A stretch of 64,000 nucleotides of DNA from an uncultured Candidatus Saccharibacteria bacterium. Its GTDB lineage: Bacteria > Patescibacteriota > Saccharimonadia > Saccharimonadales > JAGQNJ01. Where the stretch lies: assembly GCA_964602865.1 (NCBI GenBank), contig CAZRSX010000001.1, positions 153,986 through 217,985 of the forward strand, in the 5' to 3' direction. Positions within the stretch are counted from its first letter, which is position 1, and each line of letters begins with the position of its first letter. The position numbers and the translations under genes were made by a program. This document shows positions 36,041-56,637 of the stretch, piece after piece. A model generated the notes under the pieces. That model had not been told where the DNA came from. It saw nothing but the letters and a program-made list of their open reading frames with translations, and made no database searches.

Positions 36041-36148
36041 GTTATTAAGGTACTTTAGATAGTAGCACACGATTGTTTTGCCGTGCAAACATGTTTCATA
36101 TTGCGTTCTTGCTCATGCTTGCGTTTTACATGTAATCAATGTGAAAAT

Positions 36149-36601: not shown

Positions 36602-36669
36602 GGTTAAACTCCACTACTTAGATTTTGCTCATGCTTGCGTTGCAAGTCTGATTTTGCGACAGTTACTGC

Positions 36670-37181
36670 ATGACAACACCTGAAGCAGAACCGTTGACCG
36701 TTGGATATTTATTTGACGGCTACTTTGATACGACGCAAGGCGTGCCAAATTACGTGGACACCCTGGGCGACTACATGCGAGAGCAGGGTCACGAGATACG
36801 CCACATTGTTGGCGGTAGCCAACAGGTTGAGCCGCACATCTCGGTAATCGGTAGAACTTTGCTTCGGCCGATCTAGCTGTTTTTCCGGCCACTGGTGGCG
36901 AGAGTTTTGGTATTGTGCTTGCCGAAGCAATGGCGGCTCGCGCCGGTGTGGTTATTGGCGGTGATAATCCAGGATATCGAAGTGTGTTGGGTGATACGCC
37001 AGAACTTATTGTCGACCCGAACAACAGAGCTGAATTTGCAGCGCTTATACGGGAACTTGCTGCCAGCGAAACTGAACGAAGCAAGCTTCACGCTGTGCAA
37101 CAAAACTCTGTGAAGAAGTTTGATATCAAAGTCGTCGGCGCACAGATAGAAGACATATATCGAGCAGCTCTGGTACAATAA
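36670..37181 (+). pseudogene. GT4/GT1-family glycosyltransferase remnant with a large internal deletion and frame change
   Basis: The N-terminal piece (36670-36876) is LTVGYLFDGYFDTTQGVPNYVDTLGDYMREQGHEI. The C-terminal piece, in another frame from 36855, is ADLAVFPATGGESFGIVLAEAMAARAGVVIGGDNPGY...(EX7E region). About 250 aa of a normal enzyme are missing. Confidence 0.7.
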
Positions 37182-37693: not shown

Positions 37694-38980
37694 ATGGAGA
37701 CAGTTGTTGATTTGCACGTGCATTCGCATTACTCGCGGGCGACCAGCCGCGACTGCACGCTGGCGGGTTTGTATCGTTGGGGCAAACTAAAAGGTATTAA
37801 TATTATCGGCACCGGCGATTTTACGCACCCCAAGTGGTTTGACGAATGCCGCGACCAGCTAGAGCGTGACGCCAACGGCCTGTATCGTCTGAACAAAGCC
37901 CTGGCGACGGAAGTTGACGCCGTGTTGCCGGACAGCGTGCGAGACGAGCCACTGTGGTTTGTGCCGACGGTAGAAATCAGCACGATTTATAGTAAGAACG
38001 GTTCGGTGCGTAAACTGCACAACCTCGTGGTCATGCCGACGCTGGAGCTGGCCGGCCAGCTCAACGCTCGGCTGGAACGCATTGGCAACTTGCACAGCGA
38101 CGGTCGGCCGATTTTAGGACTGGACGCCAAAGAGCTCCTGCGCCATTGTTTGGAAGTTTCACCAGACAGCCTGTATATTCCGGCGCATGTCTGGACACCG
38201 TGGTTTGCGCTGTTTGGCAGCAAATCCGGCTTTGATAGCCTCAAGGAATGTTTTGAAGAACTGGCGCCCCAGGTGCGCGCCGTCGAAACCGGTCTGTCCA
38301 GCGACCCGTTTATGAACTGGCGGCTCAGTCAGCTGGACGGTTTGGCGGTGGTGTCGAACTCCGACGCCCACTCGCCAGGCAAACTCGGCCGCGAAGCCAC
38401 TGTGCTCAACATTGAACCCAGCTACCACGAACTCGTCGGCGCTATCAAAACCAACGATACACGGCTGGTTGGCACGATTGAATTTTTTCCGGAAGAAGGC
38501 AAGTACCACTACGATGGCCACCGCGTCTGCAACGTCCGGTTTACTCCTGCCGAAACCAAAGCACACAAGGGTATCTGCCCGGTGTGCCACAAACCGCTCA
38601 CCGTCGGCGTGGACTACCGCGTGAGTGAACTGGCAGACAGGGCCGAGGGCTTTATCCCAAAACATGCCAAACGCGTCGAGTACATCATTCCGCTACCAGA
38701 GATTTTAAGCGAGCTGCTTGGCACCGGCCCGGCCAGCAAAAAAGTCACCAGCCGCTACCACGAGCTCATTGCAAGCTTGGGCAACGAGTTTGCGCTGCTG
38801 CGCGCCCTGCCGCTGGCGCAGATTGCCGAAACCGATCAGCTTCTGGCGCAGGCTATTGAACGGCTTAGAGCTGGCAACGTTGTGCGCGAACCCGGTTATG
38901 ACGGCATCTACGGCACCATCAAAGTCTTCAAAGATACAAGCGAACTCACCGCCGCCAAAAGCCAGCTCAGTTTACTGTGA
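37694..38980 (+). CDS. PHP-domain protein, endonuclease Q (TIGR00375)-like
   Basis: DLHVHSHYSRATS...IIGTGDFTHPKW N-terminus, later HVWTPWF and SNSDAHS metal-binding motifs, and a CPVCHKPLTVGV zinc-knuckle. Confidence 0.65.
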   Translation: METVVDLHVHSHYSRATSRDCTLAGLYRWGKLKGINIIGTGDFTHPKWFDECRDQLERDANGLYRLNKALATEVDAVLPDSVRDEPLWFVPTVEISTIYSKNGSVRKLHNLVVMPTLELAGQLNARLERIGNLHSDGRPILGLDAKELLRHCLEVSPDSLYIPAHVWTPWFALFGSKSGFDSLKECFEELAPQVRAVETGLSSDPFMNWRLSQLDGLAVVSNSDAHSPGKLGREATVLNIEPSYHELVGAIKTNDTRLVGTIEFFPEEGKYHYDGHRVCNVRFTPAETKAHKGICPVCHKPLTVGVDYRVSELADRAEGFIPKHAKRVEYIIPLPEILSELLGTGPASKKVTSRYHELIASLGNEFALLRALPLAQIAETDQLLAQAIERLRAGNVVREPGYDGIYGTIKVFKDTSELTAAKSQLSLL

Positions 38981-38981
38981 C

Positions 38982-39010
38982 TTGACACGACCATACGCTA
39001 CATGTACAAT
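38982..39010 (+). promoter_or_regulatory. phd/relE promoter TTGACA-17-TACAAT
   Basis: The -35 starts 2 nt after the upstream stop codon. Two TAAAATGT direct repeats (39011 and 39024) lie in the leader. An AAGGA SD precedes the ATG at 39048. Confidence 0.6.
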
Positions 39011-39047
39011 TAAAATGTCAATATAAAATGTACATAAGGATGTAATT

Positions 39048-39305
39048 ATGAGCACCAAGACAATAGACGCAACTGACATGCGTAATAACCTCTCAGAAGC
39101 TCTAGATGCCGTTTCTAAGAGTAAGAATATTATTCTTGTGAAACGTCGGGGCAAAGTAGAGTCAGCGCTGATAGATGTAGACGTACTTGAAGACCTACTG
39201 GCAGCCAGCAACCCAGAGTATCTAAAGAGTATTGCTGAGGCACGGGCTAGCAAAGAATGGTACACGCCAGAAGAAGTCTTTGGCGATTTGTGGGACGAAT
39301 CCTAG
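39048..39305 (+). CDS. Phd/YefM-family antitoxin
   Basis: 85 aa. IDATDMRNNLSEALDAV...ILVKRRGKVESALIDVD is a typical Phd/YefM N-terminus. It lies directly upstream of a RelE/ParE-fold gene. Confidence 0.8.
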   Translation: MSTKTIDATDMRNNLSEALDAVSKSKNIILVKRRGKVESALIDVDVLEDLLAASNPEYLKSIAEARASKEWYTPEEVFGDLWDES

Positions 39306-39308
39306 CCC

Positions 39309-39566
39309 ATGTATCGTCTAAAAATTGAAAGCAGGGCAAAAAAAGACCTGCAATCTCTTGACGATGTAACCAAGCGACGAATTATAAAGAAACTAAAGTT
39401 TTTCCTGGCGCAAGACAATCCGCTGGCTTTTGCCAAAAAGTTGGTTGACCTCGAGGACGGTGACTACCGGTGGCGGATTGGACATTACCGAGCAGTCTTT
39501 GACGTGCGCAGCAAAACCATAAAGCTACTGCGCGTGCAGCACCGCCGCGACGTCTACCGTAAATAA
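39309..39566 (+). CDS. RelE/ParE-family toxin
   Basis: 85 aa with the typical RelE/ParE pattern YRWRIGHYRAVFDV...TIKLLRVQHRRDVYR. Confidence 0.8.
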   Translation: MYRLKIESRAKKDLQSLDDVTKRRIIKKLKFFLAQDNPLAFAKKLVDLEDGDYRWRIGHYRAVFDVRSKTIKLLRVQHRRDVYRK

Positions 39567-39703
39567 AGGAGAACAAACGCACCAATCGCAAGGATTTTAT
39601 GTCGGTTTTCCCAAGCTATAGGCAAAAATAAAAGGCCCTCAGCGCTGGGGTAGCCTAAAAACTACGGGCTGAAGGTCTTACTTGCATACTAGCAAATAAG
39701 CAC

Positions 39704-39763
39704 AACCTATCAAGGCTTTTGAGTCTCAACCCCGCCGCCAAAAGCCAGTTGAGCTTGTTATAA
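39704..39763 (+). pseudogene. relict duplicate of the 3' end of the EndoQ-like gene
   Basis: 39731-39763 encodes PAAKSQLSLL-stop, and 38948-38980 encodes TAAKSQLSLL-stop. They share a 17-nt identical core (CCGCCGCCAAAAGCCAG). The 7 downstream nucleotide differences are all synonymous or stop-to-stop. Confidence 0.65.
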
Positions 39764-39770
39764 TGGCAAC

Positions 39771-40346
39771 ATGGACTTCCCAGTGATTAGCGGCTTGCTC
39801 AGCGGTATTATTTTTGCAGTAAGCGCTAGTTGGTACACGATTGACGTCACAAAAGGCAAAGTTACGCCAAGCATTGCTACCTTCTTAATGTTTAGCCTGA
39901 TTAATCTTTCGCAGCTTGCCTCGCTCTTGGTCGAGCAGGTATGGAATGTAATTCCTTTTACACTAGTCGGAACAGTTACTTCAATTGTCATTTGTGTAAT
40001 TGCGCTTAAGAGTAAAAGGTTCTACTTTGAGCTACCTGACAAAATCGCACTTGTTGGTGCACTACTGGGCTTTATGCTTTGGGTGGTCACTAAGGACGCA
40101 GCTATTAACTTATACGTTGTTAGCGCAGTCCAGGTTATCACCTTCACTCCTTTAATTATCAAGTCATTCAAACGACCAGAACTTGAGACGATTCTTCCTT
40201 GGCAACTCAATTTACTTGCATCGTTTTTCTTACTGCTTTCCATAAATTCACTAACAGCTGTTGTCTGGGTAGTCCCGGCTAGGCAATTCCTCTGCTCATT
40301 ACTGCTAAATGTCGGCCTCTTAAGAGGTAAGCTTCGCGCTAAGTAG
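39771..40346 (+). CDS. polytopic membrane protein (6 TM), unknown family
   Basis: 191-aa hydrophobic ORF. TATAAT lies 6 nt upstream of the ATG. Confidence 0.45.
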   Translation: MDFPVISGLLSGIIFAVSASWYTIDVTKGKVTPSIATFLMFSLINLSQLASLLVEQVWNVIPFTLVGTVTSIVICVIALKSKRFYFELPDKIALVGALLGFMLWVVTKDAAINLYVVSAVQVITFTPLIIKSFKRPELETILPWQLNLLASFFLLLSINSLTAVVWVVPARQFLCSLLLNVGLLRGKLRAK

Positions 40347-40350
40347 GCTT

Positions 40351-42033
40351 ATGGGGCTAAACTCTGAACAGGAAAAAGCTATCAAGGCCGCAGGAATTGG
40401 GCATGTGGTGGTGATTGCTGGGCCGGGGACGGGGAAGACGCACACGCTCATCAGTGCTGCCCTGCATTTGTTGGAACAACACGTCAAGCCGTCGCAAATC
40501 CTGGTGCTGACGTTTACCAACAAAGCGGCCGATGAACTGACCGCACGGCTGAAGAAAAGCCGCAGTGGCAAACTGCCGCAAGCAACGACGTTTCACGCCT
40601 GGGCATATCAGCAAATCAAAAAAGACTTGGCCAACAAAAAGCTGGTAGACAACTTTACGCAGCGCCAACTCTTGCTGGAACTCAAAAAACAAACCGGCAG
40701 CAAACACACCGTGCGCGAACTCGGCCTCATCATTGCTCGTGCCAAGAATGGAGCTGATGCGCCACCGCTATTAAAAGCGTATGATGAACTACTGGCCCGA
40801 GACAACCTGATAGACTTTGACGACTTGCTCCGTCTCTATCTGGATAGCGAGCACAAACCTGCCTACACGCATGTGTTGGTCGACGAATTTCAGGACACGT
40901 CGCCGCTCCAATATCAATTGCTCGAGCGATGTATCGAAGCCGGTGCCAAAGCCTTTGTGATTGGCGACCCCAACCAGTCAATCTACGGTTTTCGAGGCGC
41001 AGATGGCGAAGTGTTCGACAGCTTTGCGACTGACTACCAGCCCACCATTGTGCGGCTGAGCGACAACTACCGTTCGGCTCGTACCATCGTGGAAGCAGCC
41101 GCCGGAATCTTTCCTGATGCCGCCCAACACCCCGTCAACAAACACGATGGTCTGGTACGAATTATTGAGACGCTCGACAGTTTTAGCGAAGCTGACTACA
41201 TTATCCGCAGCATCGAGCAAGCGCTGGGTGGTACGGACTGGGCGGCCGTCCATCATGACGAACGCCAACTGGATAGCCAGCACTTCCGTGACTTTGCCGT
41301 GCTGTATCGTCATAACCGCGCAGGGCAGCGCCTGGCCGAAAAACTTCGCGCCGCCGGTTTGCCCCTGCAAGTTACCGGCGAAGATTCGCCCTACGCCACG
41401 CCGCTGGCGCAAGCCGTGCTGGCCGCTTTTTTGTATCTGAATGAACCCAACGAACAAACCAAACAGCAGGCCGTCCAAGCAGTTCGCACACTTGGCAACA
41501 AAAGTTCGCTGGCCTGGCTTGACCAGCTTGACGCAACGCAATCGCCTGTTCAGCTGGCAAGGGATGTTATCGAGCAGCTTGGCCAAGCCGAGCGAGTTGA
41601 CGAACTGCGCAGCGTGTTACAGGGCATCGGTCAACAACCGGACTTGCCAACCGCTATCTCGTACTGGCAAACCCTAGCCGAGCAGGATTTTTACGACCCG
41701 GCCGCCGATTGCGTGACGCTCAGCACTATTCATGCCAGCAAGGGTCTGGAGTTTCGCCATGTGTTTGTGGCGGGCTGCGTTGATGGCGTGTTGCCGCATG
41801 CCAAAGGCGACCCAGCCGAAGAAAAACGGCTATTCTACGTCGCGATCACGCGCGCTATTGCCTCGGCCACCTTGCTGCACGGCCGTAAACAGGGCGGCAA
41901 GCCAGCTGCACCATCGTCTTTCTTGGCAGCTTTGCCAGCGAGCGTACCACGTCAGACCGATGATGAACTAGAAACCATAGAAAAACGTCGTGCCCGAACT
42001 CGGCTCAAACGCTCCCAACAAAGTCTGTTCTAG
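40351..42033 (+). CDS. UvrD/PcrA/Rep-family SF1 DNA helicase (short, 560 aa)
   Basis: Walker A AGPGTGKT, motif II LVDEFQDTS, motif YRS, motif V TIHASKGLEF, motif VI LFYVAITRA. Confidence 0.85.
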   Translation: MGLNSEQEKAIKAAGIGHVVVIAGPGTGKTHTLISAALHLLEQHVKPSQILVLTFTNKAADELTARLKKSRSGKLPQATTFHAWAYQQIKKDLANKKLVDNFTQRQLLLELKKQTGSKHTVRELGLIIARAKNGADAPPLLKAYDELLARDNLIDFDDLLRLYLDSEHKPAYTHVLVDEFQDTSPLQYQLLERCIEAGAKAFVIGDPNQSIYGFRGADGEVFDSFATDYQPTIVRLSDNYRSARTIVEAAAGIFPDAAQHPVNKHDGLVRIIETLDSFSEADYIIRSIEQALGGTDWAAVHHDERQLDSQHFRDFAVLYRHNRAGQRLAEKLRAAGLPLQVTGEDSPYATPLAQAVLAAFLYLNEPNEQTKQQAVQAVRTLGNKSSLAWLDQLDATQSPVQLARDVIEQLGQAERVDELRSVLQGIGQQPDLPTAISYWQTLAEQDFYDPAADCVTLSTIHASKGLEFRHVFVAGCVDGVLPHAKGDPAEEKRLFYVAITRAIASATLLHGRKQGGKPAAPSSFLAALPASVPRQTDDELETIEKRRARTRLKRSQQSLF

Positions 42034-42281: not shown

Positions 42282-43196
42282 ATGAACGCTTTTCTTATTG
42301 CGCTAATACCCCCTGCACTTTGGGCGGCGGTGAACCATATAGAAAAATTCATTCTTAGTAGGTACTTTAAGAATAATGGTATTGGGACCATGATGATTTT
42401 CTCTGCCTTTGTTGGTGTTGCTGTTCTCCCAGTATCGTTCTTTTTTCAAACCTCAGCCTTTTCAATAAGTGCTTCAATGGCGTTACTCATAGGCTTAAAT
42501 GGCTGGCTTTATCTTGTGGCTGTTTTGCCGTATCTAAAAGCCTTGCGCTCAAACGATGTAGCAGCAACAATCCCTATTTTTCAGACAATACCTGTCTTCT
42601 CGTTTGTGCTTGGCTATTTCTTTCTGGGCGAAGCGTTATCGGCTAGCCAAATTATCGGCGGACTCTTAGTGATACTGGGTGCAATTATTATTTCGTTCGA
42701 GGTACAAGAGGAAAAGAAGGTGAAGCTCCGCAAAGATACATTGTTCTATATGTTACTGGCTTCATTTATCTATGCCTTTCACTTTTTCCTTTTCAAAGCA
42801 TTTGCCGTAGACGCAGATTTTTGGACGACTGTATTCTGGGAAAGCATTGGCTTCGTTATGTTTGGGTTGCTCATTGTGTTCTTCATGAAAAGTTATCGTA
42901 CAGAGTTCCTGAATGTTATGAAGACAAACGCTAAACCAGTTATAAGCTTGAATACCCTCAACGAGATACTAAACATAGTTGCCAAGCTGTTGTTTAACTA
43001 TGCGACTCTTTCAATTGCACTTGCTCTTGCATGGGTTGCAGTTGGATTTCAGCCTGTATTTGTCTTGTTCTACAGCATAGTGTTGGCGATATTTTTTCCA
43101 AAAATTAGCAACGAAAAAGTTCTTGGCAAACACCTTGTACAGAAAATCGCGGCACTCGCTGTTATGTTGCTCGGGACATACATTATTTATTTGTAA
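42282..43196 (+). CDS. EamA/DMT-superfamily transporter
   Basis: 304 aa with 10 TM helices in two EamA-like halves. Confidence 0.8.
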   Translation: MNAFLIALIPPALWAAVNHIEKFILSRYFKNNGIGTMMIFSAFVGVAVLPVSFFFQTSAFSISASMALLIGLNGWLYLVAVLPYLKALRSNDVAATIPIFQTIPVFSFVLGYFFLGEALSASQIIGGLLVILGAIIISFEVQEEKKVKLRKDTLFYMLLASFIYAFHFFLFKAFAVDADFWTTVFWESIGFVMFGLLIVFFMKSYRTEFLNVMKTNAKPVISLNTLNEILNIVAKLLFNYATLSIALALAWVAVGFQPVFVLFYSIVLAIFFPKISNEKVLGKHLVQKIAALAVMLLGTYIIYL

Positions 43197-44431: not shown

Positions 44432-44508
44432 TGGTAGCGGCGACTGGAATTGAACCAGTGACCTCAGGCTTATGAGTCCTGCGCTCTAACCAACTGAGCT
44501 ACGCCGCC
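44432..44508 (-). tRNA. elongator tRNA-Met (CAU), CCA encoded
   Basis: 77 nt on the minus strand: GGCGGCG acceptor, AGTTGGTTA D-loop, CAGGA-CTCATAA-GCCTG anticodon arm (31:39 is A/G), and ACTGG-TTCAATT-CCAGT T-arm. Confidence 0.85.
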
Positions 44509-44614
44509 TTGTTAACAATGGAAATGTGCTAGCCCGTCAATGTGGCCGTGCTCGACAGAAAAGTCTAGTTGGTTAGAGCTTTTCGCGATTACTATTTTAT
44601 CGCCTTTGGCTTGG

Positions 44615-44633
44615 CCAACTGAGCTACGCCGCC
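44615..44633 (-). repeat. 19-nt exact copy of the 5' end of tRNA-Met, 106 nt upstream of the gene
   Basis: CCAACTGAGCTACGCCGCC occurs at 44490-44508 (inside the tRNA) and again at 44615-44633. An inverted 13-nt D-arm copy (AGTTGGTTAGAGC) lies at 44567-44579. Confidence 0.8.
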
Positions 44634-54751: not shown

Positions 54752-56637
54752 ATGTTTACTATACATATCAAACAACTACTACAACCAAACCGCCTATTCA
54801 ATGGAGCATTAGCCCTCCTCTTCCTCATAGCCACTATCCTCACCCTCATCCCAGCCCAACCAGCTCAGGCCGTTAATGTACCCATTACTATCCCGGATAC
54901 ACCGGTAGCTGATTTCCCGACCACTAGTGGTTTTGCCGGTGCCATCCTCCCCGCTCCTGACGGCTCAGTCTATGTCGGCGGTAACTTCACCGAAATCGGC
55001 GGTGTAGCCCGTAGTCGTCTGGCTCGTATCTTGCCAGACAACACCGTAGACCCAAATTTTGACCCGGATATTTCTGGCGAGTCGTGGAGTAATATATATG
55101 AACTCGCTCTTAGCCCTGACGGCCAAACGCTTTATGCTGGTGGCACCTTCGATACTGTTAACGGTGATATTGCTCGCGGAAGCTTGGCTGCTTTTAACGC
55201 AGAAACAGGTGTGGTGACAGACTTTAATCCTCTTGGAGGCGGTTATGTATATGCCATGACTCTATCTAGTGATGGAAACATTTTATATGTTGGTGGTGAC
55301 ATCAGCAAAGACGGGAGAAGCGTATTATTTGCACTCAACACCGCAACAGGAGCGATAGTACCCGGCTTTGAACCAGCCATTGATAGTATATGTGTCATGA
55401 ACTCTAGTTGTACAGAAGCCCTTGCTCTTAGCCCTGACGGCCAAACGCTTTATGCTGGTGGCACCTTCACGACATTAACTGTTCCTGCTAAAAAAATCTA
55501 GTAGCCTTCAATGCCAATACGGGCGCTGTTACTGATTTTAGCCCTAACGTAGAGACCGGACAAGGTATATATGTTTCTAGCCTTACCCTTACTAACGACG
55601 GTCAAACTCTCTACGCTGGTGGCACCTTCACCACCGTCAACGGCGATACCCCCAGAAACGGCCTAGCAGCTTTTGATACCTCCACCGGCACCGCTACGAG
55701 TTTTGATCCCAATATAAACGGTGCCAGCGCCCTGGCTGTCACTAGTGATGGTAACATTCTCTACGTCGGTGGCTGGTTTACCACCGTCAACGGTGACGTA
55801 GCTCGCAACGGCTTCGCTGCCTTCGATACCACCACTGGCATCGTTACTGATTTCAATCCTAACACGGACGATGGTACCTACATCCTCGCCCTCTCCCCCG
55901 ACAACCAAACTCTCTACGCCGGCGGCGCCTTCACCACCGTAGGCGGCCAGTCCCGACCACACCTCGCCGTCTTCCAAGCTGAGAACACCGCCCCCAACCA
56001 AGACCTCGACAATGACAACATCCCCAACCAACAAGAACAACAAGGCCCCAACAACGGCGATGCCAACAATGATGGTACACCCGACTACCAACAATCCCAC
56101 GTCGCCTCTCTCATCAACCCCGCCACCAACCAGTACGCCGTCCTGGAAGCCAATGAACACTGCTCCATCACCGAACTTGCCCTTACTCCCGAGTCTGCCA
56201 ATACCGCCTCAGATTCTAGCTATGACTACCCCCTAGGCCTAATGGACTTCACCATAGACTGCCAAGACAACGGCTTCACCACTACCATTACCCAATACTA
56301 CTACCATGCCCCCCAAGACCAGACCTACACCCTCAGAAAGTACAACCCTACCACCCAGACCTACACCACCATCACTGATGCCAGCATTGCCCACGAAACC
56401 ATCGACAACCACCCTGTCACCATGGCCACCTACAGCATCACTGACGGCGGCCCGCTGGATCTAGACGGAGAAGCCAATGGTATCATCGTAGACCCGGCTG
56501 GGCTTGGTACCACTGCAGATAGCAGCACCAACACCGGACTGGCAGACACCGGTATGAACCCCATGTACCTGCTTGTAGCCAGCGTCACCTTAGTCAGCAC
56601 TGGCTTTGTACTCAGCAGACGAGTACGCTACCTATAG
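54752..56637 (+). CDS. LAxTG-anchored beta-propeller surface protein, interrupted by a 1-nt frameshift at an A7 tract
   Basis: Signal peptide (LIPAQPAQA). There are repeated blades (...LSPDGQTLYAGGTFTTVNGD..R..LAAF...TG..T.F.P), a DNDN/NNDG Ca-binding-like region, and an Ig-like domain. The C-terminus carries LADTG, a hydrophobic helix and RRVRYL. The first frame stops at 55501, and the rest continues open from 55498 in the -1 frame relative to the first part (a -1 slip or one added A joins them). Confidence 0.7.
55490..55496 (+). repeat. A7 homopolymer at the frameshift site
   Basis: The sequence is GCT AAA AAA ATC TAG TAG. One extra A, or a -1 slip, gives ...PAKKNLVAFNANTG..., which restores the blade consensus. 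Confidence 0.9.

What the first reader, a model, noticed from the sequence alone, without database searches (positions are those of the whole stretch)
38949..39763. phd/relE cassette inserted at the 3' end of the EndoQ-like gene, leaving a synonymously diverged duplicate of the gene end
The EndoQ-like gene ends ...ACC GCC GCC AAA AGC CAG CTC AGT TTA CTG TGA (38948-38980). About 750 bp downstream, after a self-contained TA module with its own TTGACA-17-TACAAT promoter, the sequence CCC GCC GCC AAA AGC CAG TTG AGC TTG TTA TAA (39731-39763) encodes the same AAKSQLSLL-stop. The 7 nucleotide differences are all synonymous or stop-to-stop. Weaker, indel-broken similarity extends about 30 nt further upstream (IKVFKD versus IKAFES). 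Synonymous-only divergence implies the two ends come from two functional alleles. The TA module therefore probably arrived by recombination together with a foreign copy of the gene end, in the way integrative elements restore their target. The relict end also supplies the TATAAT for the downstream membrane-protein gene.
Basis: seen in the sequence. Interest (0 to 1): 0.6.

Follow-up and report, generated by a model that had tools for sequence, protein, structure and literature searches.

The report
Toxin-antitoxin cassette with duplicated gene end
A small toxin-antitoxin gene pair was inserted right behind a DNA-repair gene of a Saccharimonadia (CPR) bacterium, and the last 32 bases of that gene survive as a second, silently diverged copy on the far side of the insert; this is a clear but fairly ordinary footprint of gene exchange between related strains.

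Summary
The end of the EndoQ-like gene (38949-38980) recurs at 39732-39763. The two copies share an exact 17-nt core that is unique in the window. The tail differs at 7 of 15 bases yet encodes the same LSLL-stop.

Between the copies lies an intact Phd/YefM-RelE module with its own TTGACA-17-TACAAT promoter. Seven close relatives (81-89% EndoQ identity) all lack the module and the second gene end.

The site is a hot spot. In four relatives EndoQ abuts or overlaps the UvrD-helicase gene. Four others, one of them more distant (62% EndoQ identity), carry four different inserts there.

Silent-only divergence is unlikely if the relict had decayed in place (P about 0.01 or less). This favours two functional alleles brought together by recombination.

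Three corrections apply:
- The codon before the core differs (Thr vs Pro).
- The weaker upstream similarity is not above chance.
- There is no evidence for an integrase.

Three other Phd-RelE loci elsewhere are also bracketed by a diverged repeat; in two of them it is clearly a duplicate of a neighbouring gene's 3' end.

The closest precedent is "insertion with long target duplication", described for restriction-modification systems. I rate it a new member of a known kind, of modest interest.

The parts
37694..38980 (+). EndoQ-like (PHP / TIGR00375-type) gene, 428 aa, intact. Its last 32 nt are copy A.
   Evidence: ORF. Pfam PHP_C. Homologs carry PF27218 and some sources name them 'endonuclease Q family protein'. 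TIGR00375 scores 162 bits, below its cut-off.
38949..38980 (+). Copy A of the gene end: the 17-nt core 38949-38965 plus CTC AGT TTA CTG TGA. This is the copy in service.
38982..39010 (+). Promoter of the TA operon, TTGACA-17-TACAAT. The -35 box starts 1 nt after the EndoQ stop codon.
   Evidence: 11 of 12 consensus positions. The -10 region is conserved in cassette homologs L088, L089 and L163.
39003..39034 (.). Two TGTACA palindromes (39003-39008, overlapping the -10 box, and 39029-39034). They are the likely operator for the Phd/YefM-type antitoxin.
   Evidence: Read. GTAC motifs at the same spacing are conserved in L088, L089 and L163. Operator function is inferred from established knowledge of yefM-yoeB operators.
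39048..39305 (+). Antitoxin gene, Phd/YefM family, 85 aa.
   Evidence: Pfam PF02604, 32.7 bits against a cut-off of 29.8.
39309..39566 (+). Toxin gene, RelE/ParE superfamily, 85 aa.
   Evidence: Pfam PF05016, 34.8 bits against a cut-off of 23. Solved relatives are 2khe, 1wmi (archaeal RelE), 3g5o (Rv2866) and 3bpq (RelE3). The closest homolog in 5.8 billion proteins is 81% identical.
39567..39731 (+). 165-nt non-coding spacer that arrived with, or sits beside, the cassette. Its origin is unknown.
   Evidence: No similarity to any fetched locus. No Rfam match. Fold z-score -1.4. No terminator on the + strand. Not conserved among cassette homologs.
39732..39763 (+). Copy B, the relict gene end: the 17-nt core 39732-39748 plus TTG AGC TTG TTA TAA. 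It is not translated; an in-frame TAA lies at 39697-39699 and no start codon follows it apart from an in-frame TTG four codons before the stop.
   Evidence: It is orthologous to the native gene end in L085.
39756..39764 (+). Extended -10 element TGTTATAAT. It overlaps the relict's stop codon and ends 6 nt before the ATG of the membrane gene, which suggests a leaderless or very short-leader transcript.
   Evidence: Read. TATAATGGCAA is conserved in L085. Promoter function is inferred.
39771..40346 (+). 191-aa multi-pass membrane protein with no family assignment. It is itself a variable occupant of the EndoQ|UvrD junction.
   Evidence: It is present at this site only in L085 among the relatives examined.
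40351..42033 (+). UvrD-type helicase gene, the conserved right-hand neighbour and functional partner of the EndoQ-like gene.
   Evidence: Pfam. It is fused to EndoQ in 34 of 86 loci and adjacent in 16.

Best explanation
The phd-relE pair is a self-contained, autoregulated type II toxin-antitoxin (TA) module. It was acquired horizontally and sits in a recombination hot spot between two normally contiguous, functionally coupled repair genes: the EndoQ-like nuclease gene and the UvrD-like helicase gene.

**Shown.**
- It is an insertion.
- The downstream 32-nt copy is the native gene end of the EndoQ/membrane-gene arrangement.
- The two ends differ only silently across the nine shared codons and the stop.

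**Inferred.**
- The resident chromosome was EndoQ(end B)-membrane gene-UvrD.
- DNA from a related Saccharimonadia lineage, in which the TA operon lay 1 nt behind its own EndoQ allele (end A), was taken up. Saccharibacteria are naturally competent.
- The incoming DNA recombined with a long homologous anchor inside the EndoQ gene on the left.
- On the right it joined by a short-homology or illegitimate join at or within the 17-nt identical core. This is the pattern of homology-facilitated illegitimate recombination.
- Because the right-hand join fell 32 nt before the resident stop codon, the resident gene end was displaced rather than replaced. The donor end now completes the protein. The resident end persists as a non-coding relict.

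**Consequences.**
- The relict still supplies the extended -10 element (TGTTATAAT) for the membrane-protein gene.
- The two 17-nt cores also make the insert cleanly reversible. A deletion between them would regenerate an intact EndoQ gene.
For: **Repeat is real and unique.**

**Module is intact.** Pfam hits are above the cut-offs and a near-consensus promoter is present. RelE-type solved relatives exist.

**Empty and alternative states in close relatives.**
- L082, L164 and L165: the EndoQ stop overlaps the UvrD start.
- L083: a 36-nt gap.
- L085: the membrane gene only, with a junction orthologous to copy B and its flank.
- L081 and L166: other single genes.
- L003: a 2.8-kb insert.
- Sources.

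**No other second copy.** No relative carries a second gene end.

**Silent-only differences.** All 7 differences are silent. P = 0.008-0.010 if 3 changes, and 0.0015 if 4, had hit a neutral relict.

**Divergence level.** Divergence between A and B (25 of 33 identical) equals that between orthologs of different lineages, which run 72-85% identical along the gene.

**Sharp boundary.** Homology ends sharply at 39732.

**No vehicle.** The insert contains no recombinase, and none of the 16 neighbouring ORFs tested had such a domain. There is no plasmid or phage match.

**Competence.** Natural competence of Saccharibacteria is reported in PMC10633639.

**Recurrence.** Three other Phd-RelE loci (L088, L103, L108) are bracketed by diverged direct repeats, against a 1% background; in L103 and L108 the repeat is a duplicate of a neighbouring gene's 3' end. 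Each has a different target sequence.
Against: - No donor genome with EndoQ(end A)-TA was found. The nearest RelE is only 81% identical and sits next to a tRNA gene, not an EndoQ gene.
- No mosaic boundary is detectable inside the EndoQ gene or from UvrD identities. The homologous left anchor is therefore inferred, not seen.
- Polarity (TA plus A incoming, versus membrane gene plus B incoming) is not resolved.
- The '0 of 17 then 7 of 15' pattern is not by itself proof of a crossover. Copy A against the ortholog in L081 shows 0 of 17 then 4 of 15 without any such event.
- GC3 of the cassette (0.45-0.54) is lower than in EndoQ and UvrD (0.60-0.67). It resembles other genes of the window, so composition is uninformative.
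- The sample is one 32-nt repeat.
Confidence: 0.55

Rival explanations
1. Insertion with long target duplication in situ. The cassette entered at a staggered break and the last ~32 nt of the resident gene were copied on both sides, as described for restriction-modification units. The two copies then diverged in place.
For: - The architecture meets the published criteria: a complete system, an insert under 20 kb, a repeat over 30 bp, no mobility gene, and an empty site in a relative (PMC2853133).
- The published cases are mostly in naturally competent species, and Saccharibacteria are competent.
- In L103, L108 and L088 the relict copies carry many amino-acid changes or premature stops, as expected for decay in place.
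Against: - In the window all 7 differences are silent (P about 0.01 or less if 3 or more hit the neutral copy).
- The 5 codons of the core show no change although the tail is saturated.
- Published cases have nearly identical repeats (44/46, 47/47), whereas here 25 of 32 match.
- That much divergence implies an age similar to the split from L081-L083, which lack the insert.
Confidence: 0.15
2. Site-specific (Campbell-type) integration of a small circular cassette. Its attachment site mimics the EndoQ 3' end, and integration is catalysed in trans by a host or helper recombinase. Copy A's tail and the sequence left of core B would then be element DNA. Copy B's tail would be the displaced host end.
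For: - An exact 17-nt core is flanked on both sides by divergent sequence.
- 3' of the core the element-side copy still encodes the right peptide, whereas 5' of core B nothing needs to be conserved and nothing is.
- This is the layout of islands that target and restore gene 3' ends.
Against: - The insert has no integrase, and none was found among the 16 neighbouring ORFs tested.
- There are no inverted repeats or structured recombination site in the spacer.
- Homologous cassettes in L088, L089 and L163 have unrelated flanks, so there is no conserved attachment site.
- No second copy of the core exists in the window.
Confidence: 0.12
3. Reverse polarity. The resident arrangement was EndoQ(end A)-TA-spacer-UvrD. 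The incoming DNA was the tail of an EndoQ gene (end B) plus the membrane gene, anchored by homology in UvrD and joined illegitimately on the left.
For: - The membrane gene is itself patchy: present in L085 but absent in L164, L165, L166 and L081-L083.
- Elsewhere it sits in other contexts (L086).
- Its GC (0.43) is as atypical as that of the cassette.
Against: - No relative has EndoQ-TA-UvrD.
- Membrane-protein identity to L085 (82%) equals EndoQ identity (82%). That fits vertical descent of the EndoQ-membrane junction.
- UvrD identities show no L085-like affinity.
Confidence: 0.13
4. Assembly chimera, or a chance repeat in a metagenome-assembled contig.
For: The window comes from a metagenome-derived contig (its own proteins P0001, P0121 and P0182 sit on a single 223-kb NCBI contig).
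Against: - The 17-nt identity is shorter than usual assembly k-mers.
- The sequence 5' of copy B is not EndoQ gene body, as a strain mis-join would give.
- The chance expectation for the core is 0.05 per window. The nine shared codons and aligned stop make chance negligible.
- The downstream flank is orthologous to L085.
Confidence: 0.03

Closest known systems
[quoted passage not shown] 2000, Gene 259:99; Furuta, Abe & Kobayashi 2010, PMC2853133)
   Same: - A small self-contained 'addiction' gene unit with no transposase or integrase.
- It is bracketed by direct repeats of tens of bp that align with a single copy at the empty site of a relative.
- The repeat can overlap the 3' end of the flanking gene; the Haemophilus 46-bp repeat overlaps 15 bp of HI0105.
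- The cases are mostly in naturally competent bacteria.
   Different: - The cargo is a type II toxin-antitoxin pair, not restriction-modification genes.
- The repeats are only 78% identical, with purely silent differences. That points to two alleles rather than a fresh duplication.
- The repeat (32 nt) is at the lower limit of the published class.
Integrative elements that target the 3' end of a gene (tRNA, tmRNA or protein gene) and restore it from an element-borne copy
   Same: - The intact gene end is followed by the insert, and a displaced duplicate of the gene end lies at the far boundary.
- An identical core is flanked by divergence.
- The gene stays functional.
   Different: - There is no integrase.
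- There is no conserved attachment site among cassette homologs.
- The insert is only 0.75 kb with two ORFs.
Minimal mobile elements of Neisseria (Saunders & Snyder 2002; Snyder et al. 2007) and homology-facilitated illegitimate recombination (de Vries & Wackernagel 2002). Both are cited from my own knowledge, not checked here.
   Same: - A fixed site between two conserved genes holds different cargo genes in different strains.
- The cargo is exchanged by transformation and recombination in the flanks, without dedicated mobility genes.
- One-sided homology plus a microhomology join explains a displaced target segment.
   Different: - A classical minimal-mobile-element exchange uses homology on both sides and leaves no duplicate.
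- Here the right-hand join lies inside the left-hand gene's own end.
yefM-yoeB / relBE-type type II toxin-antitoxin operons
   Same: - The antitoxin comes first and is of the Phd/YefM family.
- The toxin is of the RelE/ParE fold family.
- There is a 3-nt gap between the genes.
- The promoter overlaps TGTACA palindromes like the yefM-yoeB operator.
   Different: - This is a Phd-type antitoxin paired with a RelE/ParE-type toxin rather than a YoeB-type toxin.
- No function has been tested.
- The host is a CPR bacterium.
Integron gene cassettes that carry toxin-antitoxin pairs (e.g. the Vibrio superintegron)
   Same: A promoter-proximal small cassette holding a relBE- or phd-type pair and bounded by repeats.
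   Different: - There is no attC-like structured site, no IntI and no array.
- The repeat is derived from the target gene.

Membership tests
Type II toxin-antitoxin module (Phd/YefM antitoxin + RelE/ParE toxin) | Two small adjacent co-oriented genes with the antitoxin upstream, each matching its family model. | tested here: met
   The genes are 39048-39305 and 39309-39566. PF02604 scores 32.7 bits (cut-off 29.8) and PF05016 scores 34.8 bits (cut-off 23). RelE-type solved relatives exist.
Type II toxin-antitoxin module (Phd/YefM antitoxin + RelE/ParE toxin) | Own promoter with a palindromic operator for autoregulation. | tested here: inconclusive
   The promoter matches 11 of 12 consensus positions. 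Two TGTACA palindromes are conserved in homologs. Binding and repression are not testable here.
Type II toxin-antitoxin module (Phd/YefM antitoxin + RelE/ParE toxin) | The toxin inhibits growth and the antitoxin neutralises it. | not testable with these tools
   Needs expression experiments.
Site-specific integrative element | Encodes, or is adjacent to, an integrase or recombinase. | tested here: not met
   The insert holds only two ORFs. No recombinase domain was found in the 16 neighbouring ORFs scanned between 33.0 and 46.6 kb. The rest of the genome was not examined.
Site-specific integrative element | An identical core repeat at both boundaries. | tested here: met
   17-nt exact core at 38949-38965 and 39732-39748.
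Site-specific integrative element | The same attachment sequence accompanies other copies of the element. | tested here: not met
   Cassette homologs L088, L089 and L163 have unrelated flanks. The repeat in L088 is a different sequence.
Insertion with long target duplication (criteria of Furuta et al. 2010) | A complete gene system in an insert under 20 kb, with no other mobile-element genes. | tested here: met
   The repeats are 783 bp apart, start to start. The insert holds both TA genes and no mobility gene.
Insertion with long target duplication (criteria of Furuta et al. 2010) | Direct repeat longer than 30 bp that aligns with a single copy at an empty site in a related genome. | tested here: met
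   The repeat is 32 nt. L085 has one copy followed by the same downstream gene. The relative is only 82% identical, so the empty site is not from the same species.
Insertion with long target duplication (criteria of Furuta et al. 2010) | The two repeats are near-identical, being products of one duplication. | tested here: not met
   25 of 32 positions are identical. All differences in the shared codons are silent, which is unlikely for decay in place.
Transposon / IS / MITE | Terminal inverted repeats and a short exact target-site duplication. | tested here: not met
   No inverted repeat brackets 38981-39731. The repeat is 32 nt and imperfect.
Integron cassette | An attC-type structured recombination site, with IntI and attI nearby. 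| tested here: not met
   The spacer folds no better than shuffles (z = -1.4). There is no Rfam hit. No integrase was found among the neighbours.
Endonuclease Q family (flanking gene) | PHP-type N-terminal domain plus the MJ0043/EndoQ C-terminal domain; family-level model match. | tested here: inconclusive
   Pfam PHP_C scores 22.3 bits (cut-off 21.3). Homologs carry PF27218 and NCBI names them 'endonuclease Q family protein'. TIGR00375 scores 162 bits, below its 326.6 cut-off.

The most novel reading that the evidence does not exclude
Phd-RelE cassettes may be recombinase-free, self-targeting mobile units.

A cassette that has once landed at a gene's 3' end keeps a copy of that gene end on its far side. 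It then carries homology to the same target on both flanks. By natural transformation it could be dropped into the same gene end of any related genome, whatever lies downstream. It could also be lost again cleanly by recombination between the two copies.

Diverged bracketing repeats in 4 independent Phd-RelE loci would be the footprint of this life cycle. In three of them (the window, a macro-domain gene in L103 and a second high-GC locus in L108) the repeat is a neighbouring gene's 3' end; in L088 the repeated ORF is unconfirmed. It would extend to toxin-antitoxin modules what Kobayashi's group proposed for restriction-modification units.
Probability: 0.2. Interest if true: 0.55.

Novelty: new member of a known kind. 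Interest (0 to 1): 0.3.

Why it matters
- It is a clean, datable footprint of how accessory genes enter the very small, gene-dense genomes of CPR bacteria. The insert sits between two repair genes that are translationally coupled here and fused in other phyla, yet neither gene was damaged.
- It shows that the EndoQ|UvrD junction is a multi-cargo hot spot in Saccharimonadia.
- It gives a sequence-level hint that toxin-antitoxin pairs can spread without any mobility gene. The mechanism would be short-homology recombination that duplicates or displaces the target gene's end.
- If the recurrence seen in three further loci holds up in a systematic survey, it would link toxin-antitoxin mobility to the 'long target duplication' mode so far documented for restriction-modification systems.
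- In itself, this single case is an ordinary consequence of recombination between strains.

Tried and rejected
1. **Exact-protein look-up of the window's EndoQ.** Nothing is on record with this start codon. Its NCBI-annotated form, P0001, sits on one contig only, so no same-species empty site could be retrieved.
2. **Search for a near-identical cassette.** The best RelE hit among 5.8 billion proteins is 81% identical. The metagenome scan gave 52% or less. Plasmid and phage DNA searches gave no match. No donor was identified.
3. **Mosaic or recombination-tract detection.** Neither sliding identity along EndoQ nor EndoQ-versus-UvrD identities gave a signal.
4. **Upstream extension of the relict (IKAFES).** Tested and rejected as not above chance.
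5. **A structured RNA, attC-like site or terminator in the 165-nt spacer.** No Rfam hit, z = -1.4, and no terminator on the + strand.
6. **Composition as evidence of foreign origin.** The cassette's GC3 is lower than that of its flanks but like other genes of the window.
7. **The 17-nt identity as proof of a crossover point.** Rejected as proof, because the ortholog in L081 shows the same 17 of 17 identity to copy A.
8. **Gene-end duplicates next to the other inserts at this hot spot (L081, L085, L166, L003).** None found.
9. **Literature search for toxin-antitoxin pairs flanked by gene-end duplicates.** Nothing specific was found. Only the restriction-modification precedent turned up.
Full report
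**Observation**

The 428-aa ORF 37694-38980 ends ACC GCC GCC AAA AGC CAG CTC AGT TTA CTG TGA. The string CCC GCC GCC AAA AGC CAG TTG AGC TTG TTA TAA lies 783 nt downstream, at 39731-39763.

- The shared 17-mer CCGCCGCCAAAAGCCAG occurs only at these two places in 64 kb, even with two mismatches allowed. The expectation from shuffles is 0.05.
- A window-wide search for exact direct repeats of 14 nt or more within 5 kb returns it as one of only five families.
- Over the 30 nt that encode AAKSQLSLL-stop there are seven differences. All are silent or stop-to-stop.

Two details need correcting.

- The codon in front of the core differs (ACC Thr vs CCC Pro).
- The 'weaker similarity' further upstream (IKVFKD vs IKAFES) is not distinguishable from chance. 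P = 0.35 against copy A, and P = 0.20-0.24 against the gene ends of six relatives. If it were real it would be in frame, 9 nt shorter. Ungapped homology stops abruptly at 39732.

**What lies between and around the copies**

- Pfam assigns 39048-39305 to PhdYeFM_antitox and 39309-39566 to the RelE/ParE toxin family, both above the curated cut-offs.
- The toxin's solved relatives are RelE-type proteins: 2khe, 1wmi, 3g5o and 3bpq.
- The operon has a near-consensus promoter, TTGACA-17-TACAAT at 38982-39010, whose -35 box begins one base after the EndoQ stop codon.
- Two TGTACA palindromes (39003-39008 and 39029-39034) recur at the same spacing in homologous cassettes. By analogy with yefM-yoeB operators I take them to be the antitoxin's binding sites. 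That is an inference.
- A 165-nt spacer (39567-39731) follows. It matches nothing fetched, has no Rfam family, shows no unusual fold and carries no terminator on the + strand.
- Copy B overlaps an extended -10 element, TGTTATAAT (39756-39764). This ends 6 nt before the ATG of a 191-aa membrane-protein gene (39771-40346).
- That gene is followed by a UvrD-type helicase gene (40351-42033).
- The flanking gene has a PHP_C domain. Its homologs carry PF27218 and NCBI names them endonuclease Q family. TIGR00375 is matched below its cut-off.
- The nearest genomes are Candidatus Saccharimonadia.

**Comparison with relatives**

Among distant Saccharimonadia (62-67% identity), the EndoQ-like gene is followed directly by the helicase gene (L001, L002, L005, and also L006). 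Across 86 loci the two genes are fused into one ORF in 34 and adjacent in 16. They therefore form a conserved functional pair.

I recovered seven distinct loci with 81-89% EndoQ identity (look-ups).

| Locus | State of the EndoQ\|UvrD junction |
|---|---|
| L082, L164, L165 | EndoQ stop overlaps the UvrD start |
| L083 (and its duplicate L084) | 36-nt gap |
| L081 | Unrelated 228-aa gene |
| L166 | 129-aa C39-like gene |
| L085 | 195-aa membrane-protein gene, 82% identical to the window's, with no toxin-antitoxin genes |
| L003 (more distant) | 2.8 kb including APH and HAD genes |

The L085 junction reads ...CAA TTG AGT TTA CTG TAA TCGGC TATAAT GGCAAGT ATG GAT TTC. Window copy B reads ...CAG TTG AGC TTG TTA TAA TGGCAAC ATG GAC TTC. 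Copy B with its downstream flank is therefore the native EndoQ-end/membrane-gene junction, apart from a 10-nt indel between TAAT repeats. This is exactly the predicted 'empty site'.

The site is a hot spot with at least five different occupancy states. None of the empty or otherwise occupied relatives has a second copy of the gene end. The duplicate is thus tied to the toxin-antitoxin insertion.

**Two alleles or decay in place?**

If the 32 nt had been duplicated at insertion and the downstream copy had then drifted as non-coding DNA, about 64% of the differences should alter the peptide.

- Simulation gives P = 0.008-0.010 that three neutral hits are all silent, and P = 0.0015 for four.
- The A/B divergence (25 of 33 identical) equals that between orthologs of distinct lineages, which run 72-85% identical along the gene. 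Yet the lineages at that distance lack the insert.

I do not regard the sharp '0 of 17 then 7 of 15' pattern as proof of a crossover point. The ortholog in L081 shows 17 of 17 identity to copy A and then 4 of 15 differences without any such event.

**Mechanism**

The insert encodes no recombinase. None of the 16 neighbouring ORFs I scanned has such a domain. No inverted repeats bound the insert. Homologous cassettes elsewhere (L088, L089, L163) share only the stretch from the -10/operator region to the toxin stop and have unrelated flanks. A cassette-borne attachment site is therefore unlikely.

The simplest account is recombination between diverged relatives after DNA uptake. Saccharibacteria are naturally competent (PMC10633639). 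There would be a long homologous anchor in the EndoQ gene on the left. On the right there would be a short-homology or illegitimate join at or within the 17-nt core. This would displace the resident's last 32 nt instead of replacing them.

- This is inferred. I found no donor and no mosaic signal.
- Polarity is unresolved. By parsimony with L085, the TA pair and end A are the newcomers.
- The rivals (in-situ long target duplication, Campbell-type integration in trans, reverse polarity, assembly chimera) are scored in the report sections.

**Is it a one-off?**

I scored similarity between the 350 nt upstream of the antitoxin gene and the 350 nt downstream of the toxin gene in 45 Phd-RelE loci.

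- The window (35), L088 (49), L108 and its duplicate L109 (56) and L103 (61) stand out. L120 (30) shares part of the L108 repeat sequence.
- Windows with the same spacing placed elsewhere reach 35 or more in 1% of 1024 placements.
- In L103 the copy next to the toxin is the true 3' end of a macro-domain gene (...EVSFVAFNQATHDAYAQLL-stop). The copy beyond the antitoxin promoter is a decayed relict (EVTSVAFDQETCDARANLLW).
- In L108 a gene end ...RGQERAFYKMLGNGTYA-stop has a relict GHERALHRVLRIGTNGCGS.
- In L088 an 18-nt exact core sits in a diverged repeat of about 75-90 nt, with a premature stop in the downstream copy.

The targets differ and both orientations occur. A diverged bracketing repeat — a gene-3'-end duplicate in the window, L103 and L108 — therefore recurs around this toxin-antitoxin family in roughly one locus in ten. 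This is a small sample.

**Comparison with what is known**

[quoted passage not shown] 2000; Furuta et al. 2010, PMC2853133). It features small addiction-type gene units without mobility genes and repeats of tens to hundreds of bp. Some overlap a neighbouring gene's 3' end, and most cases are in competent species.
- The window meets the published criteria except that its repeats are not near-identical.
- It resembles integrative elements in restoring the target gene, but it fails the integrase and conserved-attachment-site tests.
- The multi-cargo site resembles the minimal mobile elements of Neisseria, and the proposed join resembles homology-facilitated illegitimate recombination. Both comparisons come from my own knowledge and were not checked here.
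- I found no paper describing this for toxin-antitoxin pairs. The search covers only open-access literature.

**Verdict**

Three corrections apply. The Thr/Pro difference was overlooked. The upstream extension is not significant. The integrative-element analogy is an analogy only.

It is a tidy example of a known kind of event in an under-studied phylum. Interest is modest (0.3). The more interesting possibility is that such duplicates act as portable homology arms that make toxin-antitoxin cassettes self-targeting. This is not excluded, but it rests on four loci.

Noticed in passing
window 36109-36125 and 36625-36641: An exact 17-nt direct repeat (TTGCTCATGCTTGCGTT) brackets a single Cys-rich ORF of about 150 aa (ATG 36151 to stop 36601, no Pfam hit). 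The right copy lies 29 nt upstream of a glycosyltransferase start codon. This looks like a second small cassette inserted with a target duplication in the same window.
   Followed up: partly
window 36670-37181: The group-1 glycosyltransferase downstream of that cassette exists only as two short ORFs (68 and 88 aa; the second matches the C-terminal part of PF00534). It is probably a truncated or decayed gene.
   Followed up: partly
window 44432-44633, minus strand: The first 19 nt of tRNA-Met (GGCGGCGTAGCTCAGTTGG) are repeated exactly, 125 nt upstream of the intact gene. This is a tRNA 5' fragment and possibly the scar of another insertion or deletion.
   Followed up: partly
loci L001-L087; L082 3247-3250, L164 5290-5293, L165 4784-4787: The EndoQ-like and UvrD-like genes are fused into one ORF in 34 of 86 loci from many phyla. 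In several Saccharimonadia the EndoQ stop overlaps the UvrD start. This implies a conserved functional pair that the window's 1.37-kb insert splits.
   Followed up: partly
L081 6327-7013; L166 1842-2231; L003 7288-10127; L085 6288-6875: Four other, mutually unrelated cargos occupy the same EndoQ|UvrD junction in relatives: a 228-aa protein, a 129-aa C39-like protein, an APH plus HAD block, and the membrane protein. None has a gene-end duplicate.
   Followed up: yes
L088 1307-1950: Directly downstream of the Phd-RelE pair and its relict repeat sits a second toxin-antitoxin pair (RHH antitoxin plus PIN toxin). This is a small tandem array of cassettes.
   Followed up: no
L089 2850-2875 and 3616-3641: A 26-nt imperfect direct repeat brackets the two-gene HXXEE plus DUF2087 unit that lies immediately upstream of a Phd-RelE pair. 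It could be another cassette boundary or a repeated promoter.
   Followed up: no
L163 1-60 and 100-135: The closest RelE homolog (81%) sits just downstream of a tRNA 3' end. A T-arm-like fragment (GAGTTCGAAAT...CCA) follows about 60 nt later.
   Followed up: no
window 39713-39686, minus strand: A promoter-like site (TTGATA-16-TAGTAT with TG) in the spacer points back into relE and could give an antisense transcript. This is a consensus match only.
   Followed up: no
L086 5001-6464; window 39771-40346 and 42282-43196: In another Saccharimonadia contig the homologous membrane-protein gene is followed directly by an EamA-type transporter gene. The window has an EamA gene 2 kb further on, after UvrD and tRNA-Met. 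This hints at an older linkage of the two membrane genes.
   Followed up: no
window 55088-55932: Four copies of a 63-nt unit (63-87% identical to the reference copy) lie inside what appears to be a repeat-protein gene.
   Followed up: no
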